A model generated the notes under the pieces. It saw only the letters and a program-made list of their open reading frames with translations. It searched no databases and had not been told where the DNA came from. 64,000 bases of DNA from IMG/VR virus record IMGVR_UViG_3300017791_000021, positions 47,016 through 111,015 of that record. One strand, given 5' to 3'. The DNA comes from a virus. Its lineage: Duplodnaviria > Caudoviricetes. Below are positions 5,428 to 63,999 of the stretch, piece by piece. Both the position numbers and the translations under genes were made by a program. Every line of letters starts with the position of its first letter. Positions within the stretch are counted from its first letter, which is position 1.

Positions 5428-5855
5428 GTCTGCAACAGGCTCTGAAACAACTTCAGGGCTTTCTGTTGAAACAACGTCTCCGACAGCCTCTTTCCTTTGT
5501 CTGGCAGCCATACTCCCTCTTCCTTTGCGATCTTGACCAACCCCTCAACCATAGCACGGGTGTACATTCTGCGTCTACCCCGTGGGTCTGCGGAAGGCTT
5601 GGTGTATGGAGACTTGGGTAGGATACCGTCTTGCTCCCACTTGCGCAAGGTCACTGCTGACCTATTGCCTAGGGCCTTGCCCAACTGGCCGATGGAAAAG
5701 AACTCTTGCTCTTTCCCACCGACCAGAAAGGTAAAGGGTTTGGCATCCCACTTCTCGGTTTCCTTCTCCTGTGCCTTGTTCATCTGCTCAAAGAGCAGTG
5801 GAACTTGAGAACCTGGGAAGGTCTTTAGAAATCTATCGATTTGGTCAGATGCCAA
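5424..5855 (-). CDS. MerR-like helix-turn-helix DNA-binding protein
   Basis: FSIGQLGKALGNRSAVTLRKWEQDGILP...RRMYT pattern. Confidence 0.8.
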   Translation of the reverse strand: MASDQIDRFLKTFPGSQVPLLFEQMNKAQEKETEKWDAKPFTFLVGGKEQEFFSIGQLGKALGNRSAVTLRKWEQDGILPKSPYTKPSADPRGRRRMYTRAMVEGLVKIAKEEGVWLPDKGKRLSETLFQQKALKLFQSLLQT

Positions 5856-42462: not shown

Positions 42463-42960
42463 TTAGTTTATAGTCCCCACATACCACTCATCCATATCTT
42501 CACCGCGTTGTATCGCTGAGTGAATTCTGTGGCAGTTGGCGCAAATGATTCGACACTTAGCTACTTCAGCTAGTATCTTTTCCTCAGAGTATAACTCTCT
42601 AGTTGCGTCACCACAGATATTGAAATCCTTTTCTGTGGGGTCAAGGTGATCAAAGTCCATACAGGTTGGTGGGAAGATTCCACCACACATCTCGCAGGGG
42701 TGATTCACCTTTAACGAACGAATAAAATCGCGTATCTCTCTGCGTCTATTATTCCGTATCTCGTTTAGTTTGTCTTTGTTGTCACGTTGCCACTTAGCTG
42801 TAACAGGTTCCAACCCCTGTGCCTTGCGTTCATCGTACTTCTCTTTGCGAGAACTCTTAATGCATTCACGGCACTGGGGGTTGTAACCATTTGGGCTTCG
42901 TGACTTCTTATTGAATTCGGATAGGGCCTTGTGCTCTTTGCACTTAGTACATGTTTTCAT
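42463..42960 (-). CDS. Free-standing HNH endonuclease
   Basis: KTCTKC..K.LSEF, CREC, CEMCG, DFDHLD, KC.IICANCHRIH. Confidence 0.88.
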   Translation of the reverse strand: MKTCTKCKEHKALSEFNKKSRSPNGYNPQCRECIKSSRKEKYDERKAQGLEPVTAKWQRDNKDKLNEIRNNRRREIRDFIRSLKVNHPCEMCGGIFPPTCMDFDHLDPTEKDFNICGDATRELYSEEKILAEVAKCRIICANCHRIHSAIQRGEDMDEWYVGTIN

Positions 42961-42966
42961 ATACTA

Positions 42967-42975
42967 AGTATAGCA
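42967..42975 (-). promoter_or_regulatory. Extended -10 promoter for a probably leaderless HNH mRNA
   Basis: TGC-TATACT ends 6 nt before the ATG; no SD. Confidence 0.5.
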
Positions 42976-42998
42976 CCCACATTCCATAGGGTGTGGAA

Positions 42999-43823
42999 TT
43001 AGAGACCCCACATCCCTCCAAAAATCGGACTCTGTAGATTGCTCTCGTCCTCATCTCTGTGATCAATAGGTGGCAACTGACGACGTGGTAGATCGTAATC
43101 GTCGTACTCTCTGTCTTCAAAGATCGGTACCAGACGTTGTGTAGTCTTGGATACTCTTCTGATCTTAGACATTTCAATGGCATTAAGACCGACGTTAAGC
43201 ATCGCACATAGCTGCTGATACCTTGCGGTCATTCCATCGATCTGTTCGCGTAGCTGTTGGTATCGCTGGCTACGAGGGACTGTAGTCCCGTCAGCGCTCG
43301 AAATATCGATGTCGGTACTTGCATCAGTAGCAAGCGCCCAAAGGGCGTCTATGGTGGCTCTGAGGGCCACTAAGGTACCTTCTATGTCTGGGAGGTTAGA
43401 CAGATCCATCGGCACAGTTACATACTTGATGAAACCGTTGGAGTCTTTGAATCTAGTCTTCACTGTTCTGCCATTGACGTGCTGAAGAACCGCATCGTTA
43501 ATGAAGTCAGTTAGCTCATCATCCGAGAACATTCCACCAGCATAACCAGATACTACTAGAGTATCACCTTGCGGCAATGGTGCTGGTGCTCCAGTCAGAA
43601 AGATTCTACCTTCCTGATAGTTCATTGCGTAGTCTGTTCCCTTTACCAATACAACTGGGGACTGGTTTCTAATCCAGGTCACGGTCTCATTCCAGATGTT
43701 GAAGTCTGTGAGATCGTACGTAGAGACCATTCCAGTCCCCAGAAACGTATCAGAAAAAGGTGCTCCTGTATCTCCCAACTCTATACGGACTCTGTTAATG
43801 ATGTCCTGAGTAGTAAATGGCAT
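42999..43823 (-). CDS. Head-tail connector (adaptor) protein
   Basis: INRVRIELGD, FSDDEL..FI, DG..VPRSQRY; downstream of capsid genes. Confidence 0.7.
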   Translation of the reverse strand: MPFTTQDIINRVRIELGDTGAPFSDTFLGTGMVSTYDLTDFNIWNETVTWIRNQSPVVLVKGTDYAMNYQEGRIFLTGAPAPLPQGDTLVVSGYAGGMFSDDELTDFINDAVLQHVNGRTVKTRFKDSNGFIKYVTVPMDLSNLPDIEGTLVALRATIDALWALATDASTDIDISSADGTTVPRSQRYQQLREQIDGMTARYQQLCAMLNVGLNAIEMSKIRRVSKTTQRLVPIFEDREYDDYDLPRRQLPPIDHRDEDESNLQSPIFGGMWGL

Positions 43824-57862: not shown

Positions 57863-58918
57863 TTACTCTGCGCTAGGCTTGATCAGGTCATATACCTTAT
57901 CAGTAATGTCCTTTCCGTCCAACAGGCTGAACATAAAACCGGGATATTCGGTCCACTCATCGCTGGTTGCGAGTCGTGCGAACTCCTTTCGCGTCCAAGA
58001 ATCGGAATCCTTGTCCAGAGCCTTGCAGATCTGACGAAAATCGCTCTTGGCAATCGTATCGATCAGCAGAAAATCCTTTCGGATCTCCTTGAAAGTCTCC
58101 TTAAGCCAGGCGTGCCACTCGTCCGGAACGATCTCACACAGTTCCTGGAGCGTCTGGCCTTCCTTCATGTTCTCCCAGACCCGACGCTTTGTCAAACCCG
58201 TCACGATCTTGTGCAAAGCAATGTAGTCATCCTGCTTGATCTTGATCCGGTAGTTGAGATCCGGGAAGAAGACCACAAGACCTTCCGCGTTGGGGCGCGG
58301 AGGAGCCTCCAGTGCCTCTCTAAGCGTCTCGTAGGGGAAGGTCTGAGCGCGGGGACCACGCCACGTCACAACCTCGTTAGGAAGCAATACGTCGCCTTCC
58401 TCAATGTCACGCACACCCAGCAGAATCAGCTCATCCATATCTCCATAATCCAGCACAATACGGTTGGACGGATAGACAATCTCAAACATATAGGTCCACA
58501 TAGGAGCAACCTTGAAACCATACTTCGTCTTCCACAGCTCTGTAGCGTGGATTGCCTGCTCAGAAGTAAAGGAGCCACGAGTAGCAATTCCCTGCTCACC
58601 CTCATAAGACCAAAGGATACCGAGCGAACCATCCATCTTATCGGTTGCTACTACACGCTGATCCATAAGCATTGCGTCAGCCTGATTCTGACCATAGTTC
58701 AGGAACTTGTCAAAGGGCCGCGCGATAACCGTACCAGCGGAGTTTGCAATCAGACCACGGCACTTGGTAGTGACGTTGTTCCACTCTCCGTCATACTGAG
58801 CCTTTTCCGTGTAGTTGTAGATGATCAGGTCAAGAGTAGGGTGAGTGTTCTCACGCACATAGCCCTGATCGTGCATGTACATGTATTCCCGGTAACCAAA
58901 CAGATCGTAGATGTGCAT
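57863..58918 (-). CDS. rnlA: RNA ligase (T4 Rnl1-like)
   Basis: YNY, CRGLI, ARPFDKFLN, motif I KMDGSLG, TRGSF, FEI, EGLV, KIK. Confidence 0.93.
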   Translation of the reverse strand: MHIYDLFGYREYMYMHDQGYVRENTHPTLDLIIYNYTEKAQYDGEWNNVTTKCRGLIANSAGTVIARPFDKFLNYGQNQADAMLMDQRVVATDKMDGSLGILWSYEGEQGIATRGSFTSEQAIHATELWKTKYGFKVAPMWTYMFEIVYPSNRIVLDYGDMDELILLGVRDIEEGDVLLPNEVVTWRGPRAQTFPYETLREALEAPPRPNAEGLVVFFPDLNYRIKIKQDDYIALHKIVTGLTKRRVWENMKEGQTLQELCEIVPDEWHAWLKETFKEIRKDFLLIDTIAKSDFRQICKALDKDSDSWTRKEFARLATSDEWTEYPGFMFSLLDGKDITDKVYDLIKPSAE

Positions 58919-59256: not shown

Positions 59257-59565
59257 TTACTTGTGTTCGTTAATGATACCAAGGATCTTAAACTTTGGCA
59301 AGGCTCCTACGTTATACTCGACAACCTTACCCTTCTTAAACAATAGAAGAGTTGGAATTGAAGCAATATCGTAGCGCTTAGCTAGTTCGGCTTGCTCATC
59401 TGCATTGATCTTCACTACTTCTAGCCAGTCGTTCTCTTCTGATACAGACTGTAGCACGGGAGCCATCATCTTGCAAGGTCCGCACCAGTCAGCCCAGAAG
59501 TCAACTAGAACTGGCTTCTCAGATTCAAGAACCTCATTGAAGTTCTCAATAGTAATGTCACGCAT
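59257..59565 (-). CDS. trxA: Thioredoxin
   Basis: VLVDFWADWCGPCK, SIPTL; start re-assigned to ATG 59565 behind AGGAG. Confidence 0.95.
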   Translation of the reverse strand: MRDITIENFNEVLESEKPVLVDFWADWCGPCKMMAPVLQSVSEENDWLEVVKINADEQAELAKRYDIASIPTLLLFKKGKVVEYNVGALPKFKILGIINEHK

Positions 59566-59585
59566 ATATTCTCCTAATCGATACG

Positions 59586-59658
59586 TACTCCCAGCGGGAT
59601 TTGAACCCACAACCGCCTGTATATAAGACAGGTGCTCTCACCGTTGAGCTATGGGAGC
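59586..59658 (-). tRNA. tRNA-Ile(UAU)
   Basis: GCTCCCA/TGGGAGT, CCTGT-CTTATAT-ACAGG, TTCAAAT. Confidence 0.85.
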
Positions 59659-59956: not shown

Positions 59957-60040
59957 CGGAAGAGACGGGAATCGAACCCGCTCGGCCTTGAGAGCCTTAC
60001 TACGTTTCCAGCGTAGCCGCTAACCATTTGCTTCTCTTCC
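59957..60040 (-). tRNA. tRNA-Ser(GGA)
   Basis: GGAAGAG/CTCTTCC, CTACG-CTGGAAA-CGTAG, long V-arm, G73. Confidence 0.85.
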
Positions 60041-60134: not shown

Positions 60135-60213
60135 AGCGATAGGGGAGAATCGAACTCCAAACGCTAACGGTTTTGCAGACCGTTCCCAGACCATCTGAGT
60201 TAACGCCTACCGC
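60135..60213 (-). tRNA. tRNA-Cys(GCA), atypical D-arm
   Basis: GCGGTAG/CTATCGC, ACGGT-CTGCAAA-ACCGT, U73, TTCGATT. Confidence 0.7.
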
Positions 60214-60218
60214 ATGGG

Positions 60219-60296
60219 TGGATCTGCTGGGAATCGAACCCAGGTCCGCTGGTGCTCCGCGTGCGGCTTTCGCCAACGTCGAAACCTTCCAGACCC
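60219..60296 (-). ncRNA. Mini-tmRNA: tRNA-like domain only, no mRNA-like domain
   Basis: GGGTCTG-GAAGGTTTCGA-CGTTGG-[20 nt]-CCAGCG-GAC-CTGGG-TTCGATT-CCCAG-CAGATCC-A; G3:U70 and A73. Confidence 0.8.
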
Positions 60297-60301
60297 ATTA
60301 G

Positions 60302-60385
60302 TTACGCTCTATAAGGTGGTCTAGGACCACTTGGTGGTTTTGGCATGTTAGGCCCCGGAAAGGGCTTTGGTGTTTTTGGTTTCAT
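60302..60385 (-). CDS. 27-aa proline-rich peptide MKPKTPKPFPGPNMPKPPSGPRPPYRA
   Basis: ATG..TAA fills the tRNA-Val / mini-tmRNA spacer; 11 Pro using all four Pro codons; no SD. Confidence 0.55.
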   Translation of the reverse strand: MKPKTPKPFPGPNMPKPPSGPRPPYRA

Positions 60386-60386
60386 G

Positions 60387-60457
60387 TACCCGATGAGGGA
60401 ATCGAACCCCCGCATGTAGTGTGTAAAACTACTGGTCTCCCATTAACCTAATCGGGC
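60387..60457 (-). tRNA. tRNA-Val(UAC)
   Basis: GCCCGAT/ATCGGGT, GTAGT-TTTACAC-ACTAC, TTCGATT. Confidence 0.85.
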
Positions 60458-60869: not shown

Positions 60870-60947
60870 TACCCCAGACAGGATTCGAACCTGCATACTC
60901 CATTACGCTTTTAATGACCGGTTAGAAGCCGGGGGCGATACTGGGGC
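60870..60947 (-). tRNA. D-armless tRNA-Arg(UCU)-like RNA with long variable arm
   Basis: GCCCCAG-TATCGCCC-CCGG-CTTCTAA-CCGG-T-CATTA-AAAGCG-TAATG-GAGTAT-GCAGG-TTCGAAT-CCTGT-CTGGGGT-A. Confidence 0.65.
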
Positions 60948-62577: not shown

Positions 62578-62648
62578 TGGAGCCACGGGGAGTCGAACCC
62601 CGATTGCGGGTATGCAAAACCCGTGTCCTACCATTGAACGATGGCCCC
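62578..62648 (-). tRNA. tRNA-Ala(UGC)
   Basis: GGGGCCA/TGGCTCC with G3:U70, CGGGT-TTTGCAT-ACCCG. Confidence 0.92.
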
Positions 62649-62808: not shown

Positions 62809-63999
62809 TTATGCCTCCCAAGGCCACTTCTGGCTCTGACCCGCCTCAATGAGAGGGATCATCTGGAAACCCTTGTCAGTCAGTCCACCGAAGGTGTGAC
62901 GCTTCTTAGAACCAGACTGACTCTGACCAACACGGTAACCCTCAAGGTTCCAGGTATACACCGGAGTGCTTACCGGAACGCTTGCAAGAGGATCGCCACC
63001 CCAACCGTTGTACTGCTCATCGGTGATGATGATAACACGGTCATGACCCTTGAAGCTACCCTTTACCGCCGCAGCAGTATCGGTGCCACCCATGTCACGG
63101 AACTTGTCCATCATCGGAAGTAGCGAGTTACCCTTCTTGAAGCTTACAGCCTCGTAAGGCTTACGTCCACCCCAAGAAGAACCGAACTGAATCAAGTCAG
63201 CATTCTCAGCTCGAAGCGCAAGCGCAGAACCGAAGATAGCAGCCTTATCAGCCATAGTCAACTCGGAGTCAGTACGGTGGTGCTGGAACATAGAACCAGA
63301 ACGGTCAACCAGGATCAGAGTACGCCCAGTCAGAGACGGAACGTTACTCAGAGATGCCTCAAGAGCTTCCTCAAGCGCCGCAGCGATCTTCAGGTTACCC
63401 TTGTTGGCCTGGTAAGCCGCAAGGAAACGGAACGGGAACTGCTTGCTCTTAGCAACCTGAGCCGGATCGGACAGCTTAGCAAGAACACGGTTCAGCACAG
63501 TAGCACTGATACCGGCATCCTGGAAGTTACGCAGGTTGCGAAGCAACGCCATGTAACCCATGTTCGGGATAACAGCCTCCCACGCAGCCTTGTCCATCGG
63601 ACCCTGAAGCCATCCGGACAGAGCTTCCCACGTCATGCCAGCACGAGACAGAGTTTGCATACCAGCCTGAGTACCAATGAGAGCCTTACGCTTCTCAACA
63701 GGAGCAGACATCAGGTTAGCACGAGTGCTAATCATGTCAAGCTCGTAGTTGTGATCAAGAATGGTGTCGTTGCCGTAGCGACGATCAAGCGCATACTTGA
63801 ACAGAGCGTTCTGCTGTGCATTCTCAGCCTTGGCGTGAGAAAGCTGAAGAACGTCAGCGAAACGGTATCCCTTGGAATCCGTGTCGTACTTAAGCCAAGA
63901 GTACTCGTTGTAGAGACGCTTTGCGCCATCTGCAACACCCTTCTTAAGGTACGCAGGGAAGTTCTTGCCGTACTTGCTCTCGTAGTAAGCCAGCACCTC
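62809..63999 (-). CDS. rsr: Ro60 / TROVE-domain RNA-binding protein, N-terminus beyond the window edge
   Basis: TWEALS, MGYMALLRNLRNF, QFPFRFLAAY; vWA MIDAS LVDRSGSM, GGTD, IITDEQ; frame open to the edge. Confidence 0.95.
   Translation of the reverse strand, partial: EVLAYYESKYGKNFPAYLKKGVADGAKRLYNEYSWLKYDTDSKGYRFADVLQLSHAKAENAQQNALFKYALDRRYGNDTILDHNYELDMISTRANLMSAPVEKRKALIGTQAGMQTLSRAGMTWEALSGWLQGPMDKAAWEAVIPNMGYMALLRNLRNFQDAGISATVLNRVLAKLSDPAQVAKSKQFPFRFLAAYQANKGNLKIAAALEEALEASLSNVPSLTGRTLILVDRSGSMFQHHRTDSELTMADKAAIFGSALALRAENADLIQFGSSWGGRKPYEAVSFKKGNSLLPMMDKFRDMGGTDTAAAVKGSFKGHDRVIIITDEQYNGWGGDPLASVPVSTPVYTWNLEGYRVGQSQSGSKKRHTFGGLTDKGFQMIPLIEAGQSQKWPWEA

What the first reader, a model, noticed from the sequence alone, without database searches (positions are those of the whole stretch)
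60219..60296. Mini-tmRNA with a complete tRNA-like domain but no tag-coding region
Seen: acceptor stem with G3:U70 and A73, a stemless D-loop GAAGGTTTCGA, helix CGTTGG/CCAGCG, a GAC connector and a canonical T-arm. Known: this is the tmRNA tRNA-like-domain signature (alanine identity, SmpB-binding elbow), but tmRNA normally has roughly 250 or more nt of pseudoknots and tag ORF where this RNA has 20 nt; tagless forms are known mainly from some mitochondria. Inference: a phage RNA that either titrates SmpB/AlaRS to block trans-translation, frees stalled ribosomes without tagging proteins for degradation, or uses a separate mRNA in trans.
Basis: partly seen in the sequence, partly recalled or inferred. 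Interest (0 to 1): 0.9.

Follow-up and report, generated by a model that had tools for sequence, protein, structure and literature searches.

The report
Phage tag-less mini-tmRNA gene
This Streptomyces phage carries a real 78-base gene for only the alanine-accepting, tRNA-like end of the bacterial ribosome-rescue RNA (tmRNA); one such phage RNA is already published, the type is common but rarely annotated, and it probably keeps stalled phage proteins from being tagged for destruction.

Summary
Window 60219-60296 (minus strand) is a tmRNA tRNA-like domain (TLD) with no tag message. Rfam tmRNA scores it 60.4 bits against a cut-off of 47; ARAGORN misses it.

It is not a one-off deletion or an assembly collapse. 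Five named Streptomyces phages related to BRock have the same ~80-nt form after tRNA-Val(tac), with compensatory changes in the stems.

Across 94 distinct sequences, 97.1% of pair cells are paired, 16 of 21 pairs covary, and G3:U70 is invariant. Neither this genome nor any of 40 other carriers encodes SmpB.

The kind is already in print: mycobacteriophage DS6A is listed as 'TLD only', and a similar molecule inhibits tmRNA in E. coli (PMC4131195, PMC11915505). The DS6A RNA belongs to the same family. This scan has noted the same thing before on other DNA, in 27 notes from at least 26 genomes.

Verdict: a new member of a known kind. The likely role, competing with host tmRNA, is inferred and was not tested.

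The parts
60219..60296 (-). Mini-tmRNA gene (tRNA-like domain only), 78 nt from G1 to discriminator A
   Evidence: Rfam RF00023 60.4 bits over 60216-60296. Own covariance model R1 88.1 bits over 60219-60296.
60290..60296 (-). Acceptor stem, 5' strand (G1-G7); G3 pairs with U70
   Evidence: Sequence. In the family alignment, pairs 1-3 are GC, GC and GU in 94 of 94 sequences, and pairs 4-7 show changes on both sides.
60279..60289 (-). Unpaired D-loop analogue (positions 8-18), GG then UUCGA
   Evidence: Sequence. GAC is invariant in alignment A1, but TTCGAC was fixed by the search pattern for most rows.
60273..60278 (-). Helix 2 (P2), 5' strand (C19-G24)
   Evidence: helix 2: 95.7% of cells paired, and 5 of 6 pairs change on both sides.
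60253..60272 (-). 20-nt insert that replaces the pseudoknots and tag frame. It contains a 3-bp hairpin with a CACG loop (positions 31-40, window 60257-60266).
   Evidence: helix 3: 89.9% paired, and 3 of 3 pairs change on both sides. The same hairpin sequence occurs in DS6A.
60247..60252 (-). Helix 2 (P2), 3' strand (C45-G50)
60244..60246 (-). GAC connector (positions 51-53), part of the GGAC motif before the T-arm
   Evidence: Sequence. A52 and C53 are invariant in A1, but this was fixed by the pattern for most rows.
60227..60243 (-). T-arm (5-bp stem, UUCGAUU loop)
   Evidence: helix 4: 99.6% paired. The outer two pairs each show four pair types.
60220..60226 (-). Acceptor stem, 3' strand (positions 71-77)
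60216..60218 (-). CCC after the discriminator. CCA is not encoded and would have to be added after trimming.
   Evidence: Sequence. Among 82 distinct IMG/VR copies, 22 encode CCA and 60 do not.
60386..60457 (-). tRNA-Val(tac), the conserved upstream neighbour of the mini-tmRNA
   Evidence: ARAGORN. Same order in pSt2308, GiJojo, BRock and Alone3, and in Riptide.

Best explanation
This is a functional gene for a tRNA-like-domain-only (tag-less) tmRNA, of the same family as the published 'TLD only' RNA of mycobacteriophage DS6A.

Shown:
- The sequence and fold are those of a tmRNA TLD.
- The ~80-nt form is conserved in related phages and in a large phage family, with compensatory changes.
- G3:U70 and A73 are invariant.
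- No tag frame, pseudoknots, second tmRNA or SmpB gene is present in the phage.

Inferred:
- The RNA is cut out of the tRNA-array transcript by the host's tRNA-processing enzymes and receives CCA.
- It is charged with alanine by host AlaRS and is bound by host SmpB and EF-Tu.
- It competes with host tmRNA for SmpB and for stalled ribosomes.
- A stalled nascent chain then receives at most one alanine instead of the SsrA degradation tag.

The selected benefit would be to protect phage proteins. This phage is 48.7% G+C, carries 28 tRNA genes and infects a high-G+C host (host composition recalled), so stalling at codons that are rare for the host should be frequent.
For: Identity:
- RF00023 scores 60.4 bits against a cut-off of 47.
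- Model R1 scores the window RNA 88.1 bits and the window's tRNA-Ala 27.9 bits.

Not a one-off:
- Hits of about 80 nt lie after tRNA-Val(tac) in pSt2308 (61.0 bits), GiJojo (57.4) and BRock (64.5).
- Alone3 scores 36.8.
- LuckySocke is 100% identical over 79-80 nt.
- Helix 2 differs by compensatory changes between the window, pSt2308 and BRock.

Family:
- 112 of 119 IMG/VR loci returned by the pattern scan have a perfect 7-bp acceptor stem.
- Across 94 distinct sequences, 97.1% of cells are paired against 70.7% in shuffles and 38-57% with slid partners.
- 16 of 21 pairs change on both sides, and the covariation score is 0.628 against 0.121 in shuffles.
- G3:U70 holds in 94 of 94 sequences. Discriminator A holds in 82 of 82. 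Neither was required by the pattern or by my filter.
- All 7 copies found by BLAST, Rfam or R1 rather than by the pattern also keep both features.

Dependence on the host:
- SmpB (PF01668) is absent from the own genome and from 0 of 40 other carrier records.

Phage-specific:
- The same pattern in cellular genomes gave R1 scores of 54.9 bits or more in only 5 of 120 loci. The rest were 49.8 bits or less or were not listed. By the parse, these are mostly 3' ends of full-length tmRNAs.

Published support (passages read):
- Peptidyl transfer to a TLD-only truncated tmRNA occurs in vitro (PMC3895274, discussing Shimizu and Ueda 2006).
- A truncated tmRNA has been crystallised with SmpB and EF-Tu on the ribosome (PMC8363625).
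- Rare-codon stalling elicits tmRNA tagging, as stated for Streptomyces in PMC2635970, section 6.
Against: - There is no evidence of expression, charging or SmpB binding for this RNA. The only RNA-library signal is one Logan contig, about 94% alike, in a run whose RNA status is a guess.
- The inhibition experiment is known to me only through two citing papers. Mao et al. 2009 is not held. PMC4131195 says 'a similar molecule', so the tested RNA may not have been the DS6A RNA itself. In that report inhibition did not need charging, so it does not explain why alanine identity is invariant here.
- Some phages carry both a long tmRNA and a mini copy: Mildred21 has a 269-nt tmRNA with tag AESNSAFALAA*, and G006 has a 392-nt form. 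This is awkward for a pure shut-down of trans-translation.
- Riptide also has a mini copy. I did not locate its tmRNA myself; it is reported in PMC12509530 (abstract in a search listing).
- The Alone3 copy has two unpaired T-stem positions and an altered D-loop, so the gene can decay.
- 87 of the 94 aligned sequences were found with a pattern that fixes TTCGAC, GGAC and the T-loop. Their invariance is partly by construction. Alignment A3 was also fitted to the model structure.
- The MFE fold of this one sequence prefers a different pairing of the insert.
Confidence: 0.55

Rival explanations
1. Productive tag-free rescue. The selected effect is to free ribosomes rather than to block tagging. 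The Ala-charged mini-tmRNA with host SmpB accepts the stalled chain. The peptidyl-RNA then drops off or is released by other factors. This would add rescue capacity when phage codon usage or host RNA-cleaving defences cause many stalls.
For: - Invariant G3:U70 and A73 argue that charging matters.
- Peptidyl transfer to a TLD-only tmRNA is reported in vitro (PMC3895274, passage).
- The window neighbours include a T4 Rnl1-type RNA ligase and a TROVE/Ro60-like protein, which fits an RNA-damage theme.
- Co-occurrence with a full-length tmRNA in Mildred21 and G006 is easier to reconcile with extra rescue capacity than with inhibition.
- Mitochondrial tag-less tmRNAs are thought to help with incomplete mRNAs (PMC11915505, passage).
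Against: - Without a message and a stop codon there is no known route to termination. After transfer the ribosome would again have an empty A site.
- A TLD-like RNA is reported to inhibit tmRNA function in E. coli, not to substitute for it (PMC4131195, PMC11915505).
- Nothing here tests release.
Confidence: 0.2
2. Pure SmpB sponge. The RNA only sequesters host SmpB off the ribosome. Charging is irrelevant, and the acceptor identity is kept for other reasons, such as processing, CCA addition or descent.
For: [quoted passage not shown]
- No carrier encodes its own SmpB.
Against: - G3:U70 is kept in 94 of 94 sequences and A73 in 82 of 82, while the neighbouring acceptor pairs 4-6 change freely with compensation. 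This is the pattern expected if AlaRS recognition is under selection.
- The T-arm and acceptor arm, which are the EF-Tu-binding half, are kept intact at 99.2% and 99.6% paired.
Confidence: 0.12
3. A tRNA-like processing signal, or another use of an alanyl-RNA. The element serves mainly as an RNase P / 3'-end processing site that punctuates polycistronic transcripts, or it donates alanine to a non-ribosomal acceptor.
For: - In 25 of 112 IMG/VR loci it lies about 121 nt upstream of the HK97 capsid gene on the same strand, with a prohead protease gene upstream in 19 loci.
- In the window it sits in a tRNA array with no promoter-like site of its own nearby.
Against: - Any tRNA would do as a processing signal. 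This element keeps tmRNA-specific features and lacks an anticodon arm.
- 92 of 112 loci have no other tRNA in the DNA held, so it is not a passenger of tRNA arrays.
Confidence: 0.05
4. A non-functional relic of a full-length phage or host tmRNA gene after an internal deletion, an attP-type fragment, or an assembly artefact.
For: - The Alone3 copy looks degenerate (36.8 bits).
- Many temperate actinophages carry only the 3' part of the host tmRNA gene as an attachment site. Such hits appear, and the background is in PMC10865867 (passages).
Against: - Both halves are present and form a complete TLD.
- The same length recurs in all five named relatives and in the family, with compensatory changes.
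- The RNA is 100% identical in two independently sequenced isolates whose flanks do not align.
- The BRock announcement reports no lysogeny genes (PMC7453282, abstract in a search listing).
Confidence: 0.03

Closest known systems
'TLD only' / 'standard, no CDS' tmRNA of Mycobacterium phage DS6A (Mao et al. 2009, not held; Hudson, Lau and Williams 2014, PMC4131195; tmRNA database paper 2025, PMC11915505)
   Same: - Phage-borne, with standard 5'-to-3' order and about 80 nt. I located the DS6A RNA at JN698994 28478-28560.
- Acceptor stem with G3:U70 and A73, T-arm, and a short helix 2 closed by the same small hairpin.
- It matches my family model at 66.6 bits.
   Different: - Different host genus and phage type: a ~111-kb phage with a large tRNA array, related to the virulent myovirus BRock, against a 60.6-kb mycobacteriophage.
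- DS6A has GGUCGAC and GGCAC where the window RNA has UUUCGAC and GGAC.
- DS6A scores below the Rfam cut-off (43.2 bits) and the window RNA scores above it (60.4).
Full-length one-piece tmRNA (Rfam RF00023), including the 269-nt tmRNA of the Streptomyces BE1 phage Mildred21
   Same: The tRNA-like domain: acceptor stem, alanine identity, D-loop analogue, GGAC, T-arm and helix 2.
   Different: The window RNA has no resume codon, tag frame, stop codon or pseudoknots. It has 20 nt where Mildred21 has about 200 nt that include the tag AESNSAFALAA*.
Mitochondrial (jakobid and oomycete) and plastid CDS-less tmRNAs (Rfam RF02544; PMC3590771 seen as a search listing only; PMC11915505 passage)
   Same: A tmRNA reduced to the tRNA-like part with no tag frame, thought to depend on an SmpB encoded elsewhere.
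   Different: - The mitochondrial genes are usually circularly permuted. This one is in standard order.
- RF02544 gave no match at E <= 0.01 in the phage genome, but that search rang in no control genome either.
- No common descent is shown.
Engineered TLD-only tmRNA fragments used in biochemistry and crystallography (described in PMC3895274 and PMC8363625)
   Same: A TLD with helix 2 capped by a loop. Such fragments are reported to accept the nascent peptide and to bind SmpB and EF-Tu on the ribosome.
   Different: Those are laboratory truncations of bacterial tmRNAs. This is a natural, conserved phage gene.

Membership tests
tmRNA (Rfam RF00023, one-piece) | Scores at or above the curated gathering score | tested here: met
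   60.4 bits against 47. In one search only a 17.8-bit truncated match was listed.
tmRNA (Rfam RF00023, one-piece) | tRNA-like domain: 7-bp acceptor stem with G3:U70, discriminator A, T-arm, stemless D-loop analogue, helix 2 | tested here: met
   Sequence. Covariation of all four helices.
tmRNA (Rfam RF00023, one-piece) | mRNA-like domain: resume codon, tag reading frame and stop codon | tested here: not met
   Only 20 nt lie between the helix-2 strands. ARAGORN finds no tmRNA or tag in the window.
tmRNA (Rfam RF00023, one-piece) | Pseudoknots PK1-PK4 | tested here: not met
   There is no room for them. The whole gene is 78 nt.
tmRNA (Rfam RF00023, one-piece) | Alanylation by AlaRS and binding of SmpB | not testable with these tools
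   The identity elements are present. The SmpB contacts named in PMC8363625 (U17, G19, A334) map onto the UUCGAC and GGAC motifs by my recalled E. coli numbering. That mapping was not checked by any search.
TLD-only (CDS-less, standard-order) phage tmRNA, DS6A type | About 60-85 nt, both TLD halves in standard order, no CDS, borne by a phage | tested here: met
   The phage record has direct terminal repeats and 100% estimated completeness.
TLD-only (CDS-less, standard-order) phage tmRNA, DS6A type | Homology to the DS6A RNA | tested here: met
   DS6A matches model R1 at 66.6 bits, but it was one of the 92 sequences the model was built from. The two RNAs share the same inner hairpin sequence.
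TLD-only (CDS-less, standard-order) phage tmRNA, DS6A type | Inhibits host tmRNA function | not testable with these tools
   Reported for a similar molecule in E. coli (PMC4131195, PMC11915505). The primary paper is not held.
Two-piece (permuted) tmRNA, RF04321 | Permuted gene order with a separate coding piece | tested here: not met
   The best match in the genome is 20.6 bits against 47 and covers only the T-arm region. In the window, 23.5 bits.
Mitochondrial tmRNA, RF02544 | Match to the family model | tested here: inconclusive
   No match at E <= 0.01, but the search rang in none of the 14 control genomes.
tRNA-Ala | Anticodon arm with an alanine anticodon, and a D-stem | tested here: not met
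   Neither is present. ARAGORN makes no call. The true tRNA-Ala(tgc) at 62578-62648 scores only 27.9 bits on R1, against 88.1 for this RNA.

The most novel reading that the evidence does not exclude
The mini-tmRNAs form a large, ancient phage RNA family that must be alanine-charged to work. On this reading they act on the ribosome itself rather than as a passive SmpB sponge. They enter stalled ribosomes with host SmpB and EF-Tu and replace degradation tagging with a tag-free transfer. Their function would also be distinct from that of full-length phage tmRNAs, because some phages keep both.
Probability: 0.35. Interest if true: 0.6.

Novelty: new member of a known kind. Interest (0 to 1): 0.33.

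Why it matters
Trans-translation is the main ribosome-rescue and quality-control route in bacteria, and it is a drug target. A natural small RNA that redirects or blocks it would be a compact tool. It would also be a clear case of a phage tampering with host translation quality control.

For annotation, the point is practical. ARAGORN-based pipelines miss these genes. The gene is unannotated in all five related GenBank phages that I opened (GiJojo, pSt2308, BRock, Alone3, Shaeky), and in GiJojo it is covered by a hypothetical-protein call.

The invariant alanine identity across 94 sequences gives a sharp test between the sponge model and the on-ribosome model. GiJojo and LuckySocke carry the identical RNA and are cultured on laboratory Streptomyces strains, for which ssrA and smpB mutants have been described (PMC2635970).

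Tried and rejected
Expression: the look-up of sequencing runs returned only small shares of the words (0.06-0.12) in soil and root metatranscriptome contigs. When four runs were laid, one 501-nt contig of run X6 covered window 60218-60317, with 6 other letters and 1 gap. That run's RNA status is a guess. Contigs cannot show transcription, ends or strand, so I draw nothing from this. X1 and X2 showed next to no cover of the RNA itself.

Trans mRNA or a second piece: RF00023 finds no second tmRNA in the genome. RF04321 gives nothing over its cut-off.

Mitochondrial model: RF02544 gave no match, and the control was uninformative.

Own promoter or terminator: no minus-strand promoter-like site lies between tRNA-Val and the RNA. 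The nearest is at 61023-60995. The counts are close to those of shuffles, so this is uninformative.

Named cultured carriers outside Actinobacteria: BLAST with three IMG/VR representatives found only partial 3' matches and no full-length copy. BLAST with a fourth representative led to Shaeky and Riptide.

Host tmRNA comparison: not done.

Primary paper: Mao et al. 2009 is not held. Supplementary tables of PMC11915505, which would list the 79 phage and 9 'standard, no CDS' sequences, were not opened. They may already include relatives of this RNA.

Not in print, as far as I searched: searches found no paper in the held library that describes a large family of TLD-only phage tmRNAs, or one in phages related to BRock. 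The BRock announcement reports 29 tRNAs (PMC7453282, abstract in a search listing only).

ARAGORN's tag call for the 392-nt tmRNA of G006 (SPEYRIRLLTNTKW*, 'not identified') is unconvincing, and I do not rely on it.
Full report
1. The observation

On the minus strand of the window, 60296 down to 60219 reads as a complete tmRNA tRNA-like domain. Its parts are:
- a 7-bp acceptor stem with G3:U70 and a discriminator A;
- an unpaired D-loop analogue ending in UUCGA;
- a 6-bp helix (C19-G24 with C45-G50);
- a GAC connector;
- a 5-bp T-stem with a UUCGAUU loop.

Only 20 nt lie between the two strands of the helix. CCA is not encoded: CCC and then A follow the discriminator.

Rfam's tmRNA model (RF00023) matches 60216-60296 (-) at 60.4 bits. 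The gathering score is 47, E = 3.8e-21, and both ends of the 374-position model are aligned. The whole-genome search repeats this. ARAGORN lists 11 tRNAs in the window and no tmRNA.

Two results are less favourable. In the permissive search of 301 nt, RF00023 was listed only as a 17.8-bit truncated match. Folding energy alone is also unremarkable: the MFE is -32.6 kcal/mol, z = -1.71, 11 of 200 shuffles fold as well, and the MFE pairs the insert differently. The TLD fold scores -27.2 kcal/mol.

2. Not a one-off deletion or an assembly collapse

The window is the right part of a 111,015-bp phage record with direct terminal repeats. Its genome is 48.7% G+C and carries 28 ARAGORN tRNA genes.

BLAST places the phage among Streptomyces phages related to BRock:
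- GiJojo and LuckySocke are 100% identical over 79-82 nt.
- pSt2308, Alone3 and BRock are 77-81% identical.

In pSt2308, GiJojo, BRock and Alone3 the element lies after tRNA-Val(tac) and before tRNA-Ser(gct). It is not annotated in any of them. In GiJojo a hypothetical-protein CDS covers it.

Rfam gives 81-nt hits in pSt2308 (61.0 bits), GiJojo (57.4) and BRock (64.5), and nothing over the cut-off in Alone3, so 3 of 4 loci pass. Alone3 scores 36.8 bits.

Helix 2 differs between the window, pSt2308 and BRock by changes that keep the pairing. An IMG/VR relative (L052) changes acceptor pair 4 from U-A to G-C.

With GiJojo and LuckySocke, BLAST aligned only the RNA itself at E <= 1e-5, covering 27% of a 301-nt query. 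The RNA is therefore far better conserved than its flanks.

None of these relatives has a full-length tmRNA at the site or elsewhere in the genome.

3. A large phage family

A pattern built from the D-loop motif, a 10-40 nt gap, GGAC and the T-arm was scanned over IMG/VR. Of these, 112 have a perfect 7-bp acceptor stem beginning GG, with total lengths of 61-81 nt.

I built a covariance model (R1) from 92 sequences. I then realigned 94 distinct sequences to it:
- the window RNA;
- five named-phage copies;
- 83 from IMG/VR;
- five from MAG contigs.

On that alignment:
- 97.1% of pair cells form standard pairs, against 70.7% in shuffles and 38-57% when the partners are slid.
- 16 of 21 pairs change on both sides.
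- The covariation score is 0.628 against 0.121, with 0 of 500 shuffles as high.
- All four helices are supported, including the small hairpin in the insert.

Some caveats apply. The pattern fixes TTCGAC, GGAC and most of the T-arm. My filter required acceptor pairing. The alignment was fitted to the model. The invariance of those motifs and part of the pairing are therefore by construction.

Two features were not constrained, and both are invariant. Pair 3 is G:U in 94 of 94 sequences. The discriminator is A in 82 of 82 distinct IMG/VR copies. All seven copies found by BLAST, Rfam or R1 rather than by the pattern also keep both. These are BRock, Alone3, phiPsal1, DS6A, Shaeky, Riptide and the Mildred21 mini copy.

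Rfam itself scores such ~72-84-nt hits above its cut-off in 36 of 36 carrier records tested.

As a control, the same pattern was scanned over one genome per prokaryote species. By the parse, most of these are 3' ends of ordinary full-length tmRNAs. R1 gives 54.9 bits or more in only 5 of the 120, all on MAG contigs of 1.6-17 kb. The remainder score 49.8 bits or less or were not listed at E <= 1e-6. The short form is therefore essentially a phage feature.

4. What is absent

- There is no tag frame and no pseudoknots.
- The genome holds no second tmRNA and no permuted or two-piece form.
- The mitochondrial model gave no match, although that search had no working control.
- The genome has no SmpB gene. 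Neither do 0 of 40 other carrier records, 8 of which are estimated at least 90% complete.

Any SmpB partner must therefore be the host's.

5. Prior art

Hudson, Lau and Williams (2014, PMC4131195, passages read) list 'Mycobacterium phage DS6A (TLD only)'. They state that a similar molecule, chargeable or not, strongly inhibits tmRNA, perhaps by titrating SmpB. They cite Mao et al. 2009, which is not held here.

The 2025 tmRNA database paper (PMC11915505, passages read) counts 79 phage sequences and 9 'standard, no CDS' forms. It says the DS6A form was shown to inhibit endogenous tmRNA in E. coli.

I located the DS6A RNA at JN698994 28478-28560 (43.2 bits). It has the same architecture as the window RNA and the same insert hairpin sequence, and it matches R1 at 66.6 bits. 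The window RNA is thus a new member of a published kind.

This scan has reached the same conclusion before on other DNA. One search found 27 notes in at least 26 genomes, and the 8 shown were all read as tag-less tmRNA-like RNAs. I had found the DS6A papers first.

My six literature searches found no description of the size of the family or of copies in phages related to BRock. I did not open the supplements of the database paper.

6. How it most likely works

The following steps are inferred. The RNA is released from the co-oriented tRNA-array transcript by tRNA-processing enzymes. The next tRNA-like gene starts 11 nt after its discriminator. The RNA receives CCA, is alanylated by host AlaRS, and binds host SmpB and EF-Tu.

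Published work supports parts of this. A TLD-only tmRNA accepts the nascent peptide in vitro (PMC3895274, passage). A truncated tmRNA sits with SmpB and EF-Tu on the ribosome (PMC8363625, passages).

The strict retention of alanine identity, while neighbouring acceptor pairs drift with compensation, argues that charging is selected. This favours action at the ribosome over a passive sponge. The net effect would be that stalled chains escape the SsrA tag.

This phage has a plausible need. It is 48.7% G+C and carries 28 tRNAs, including Leu(taa). Its host genus has a very high G+C content (recalled). Rare-codon stalling is stated to elicit tagging (PMC2635970, section 6).

Whether the ribosome is then productively released is open, and that is the main rival reading.

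One result weighs against a simple shut-down of trans-translation. The BE1 phage Mildred21 carries a 269-nt tmRNA with the tag AESNSAFALAA*. It also carries a divergent mini copy (49.1 bits). Riptide likewise has a mini copy, right after tRNA-Val(tac) (57.0 bits). One 123.6-kb IMG/VR phage (G006) carries a 392-nt form and a mini form.

7. Surroundings in the window

The RNA lies in a minus-strand array. In transcription order (descending coordinates) the array runs:
- a TROVE/Ro60-like protein with a VWA domain (62809-63996);
- tRNA-Ala, Lys, Lys and Arg;
- small ORFs;
- tRNA-Val;
- the mini-tmRNA;
- a tRNA-Cys-like RNA;
- tRNA-Ser, Ser and Ser;
- tRNA-Ile;
- thioredoxin (59257-59610);
- tRNA-Ile, His and Tyr;
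- a T4 Rnl1-type RNA ligase (57863-58918).

This RNA-repair flavour fits either reading and was not tested further.

Elsewhere the element is not tied to tRNA arrays. In 92 of 112 IMG/VR loci there is no tRNA in the DNA held. In 25 of 112 it lies about 121 nt upstream of an HK97 capsid gene on the same strand. A prohead protease gene lies upstream in 19 loci and a portal gene in 21. The cultured Pontimonas phage phiPsal1 has the same arrangement.

8. Verdict

It is a new member of a known kind and not a new kind.

Identity is near certain. The mechanism, competition with host tmRNA with charging required, is an inference that I hold at about even odds.

Noticed in passing
window 60135-60207 (-): A tRNA-like gene starts 11 nt after the mini-tmRNA's discriminator. 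It has a GCA (Cys) anticodon loop and an odd D region. ARAGORN misses it. Rfam lists it only as tRNA-Sec at 35.6 bits, below the cut-off of 47. It aligns to annotated tRNA-Cys genes of BE1 phages.
   Followed up: partly
window 59957-60040 (-) and 60870-60947 (-): Two more tRNA genes are found by Rfam (37.9 and 29.8 bits) but not by ARAGORN. By position they correspond to tRNA-Ser(gga) and tRNA-Arg(tct) of the relatives.
   Followed up: no
L002 (Streptomyces phage GiJojo) 1502-1744: The annotated hypothetical protein gene 44 starts on top of the mini-tmRNA (1504-1584). This is probably a false ORF call.
   Followed up: no
IMG/VR loci such as L104, L011, L107; L008/L250 (Pontimonas phage phiPsal1, record 5569-5650): In 25 of 112 IMG/VR loci the mini-tmRNA lies about 121 nt upstream of the HK97 major capsid gene on the same strand. 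A prohead protease gene lies upstream in 19 loci. phiPsal1 has the same layout.
   Followed up: partly
L259 1501-1577 (Mildred21), L262 1477-1553 (Riptide), L258 (Mildred21 tmRNA, record 96087-96355): Mildred21 and Riptide (BE1 phages) have a divergent mini-tmRNA with altered D-loop and GGAC motifs; in Riptide it lies just after tRNA-Val(tac). Mildred21 also has a 269-nt tag-encoding tmRNA. The 123.6-kb IMG/VR phage G006 also has a long and a short form.
   Followed up: partly
L261 1491-1569 (Streptomyces phage Shaeky, record 42932-43010): An unannotated mini-tmRNA (R1 83.9 bits) lies inside the tRNA array of a 45.6-kb phage, between tRNA-Phe and tRNA-Leu.
   Followed up: partly
L252 1501-1577 (Streptomyces phage Alone3): This copy has two unpaired positions in the T-stem and CACGAC in place of UUCGAC. 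It scores 36.8 bits on Rfam and looks as if it is decaying.
   Followed up: no
window 60216-60297 compared with GiJojo and LuckySocke: The RNA is 100% identical in these phages, yet the flanking spacers did not align at E <= 1e-5. This suggests either very strong constraint or exchange of the RNA as a cassette.
   Followed up: no
L143, L160, L170, L197, L202 (MAG contigs labelled Butyrivibrio, Pseudanabaenaceae, Actinomycetota, uncultured bacterium, Saccharibacteria): Five cellular-genome contigs of 1.6-17 kb carry a mini-tmRNA (R1 54.9-79.8 bits). They are probably phage or prophage DNA binned into MAGs.
   Followed up: no
G000:C1:1977-2050 (outside the window): The phage encodes tRNA-Leu(taa). 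This reads the UUA codon, which is rare and developmentally limited in Streptomyces (PMC2635970 abstract).
   Followed up: no
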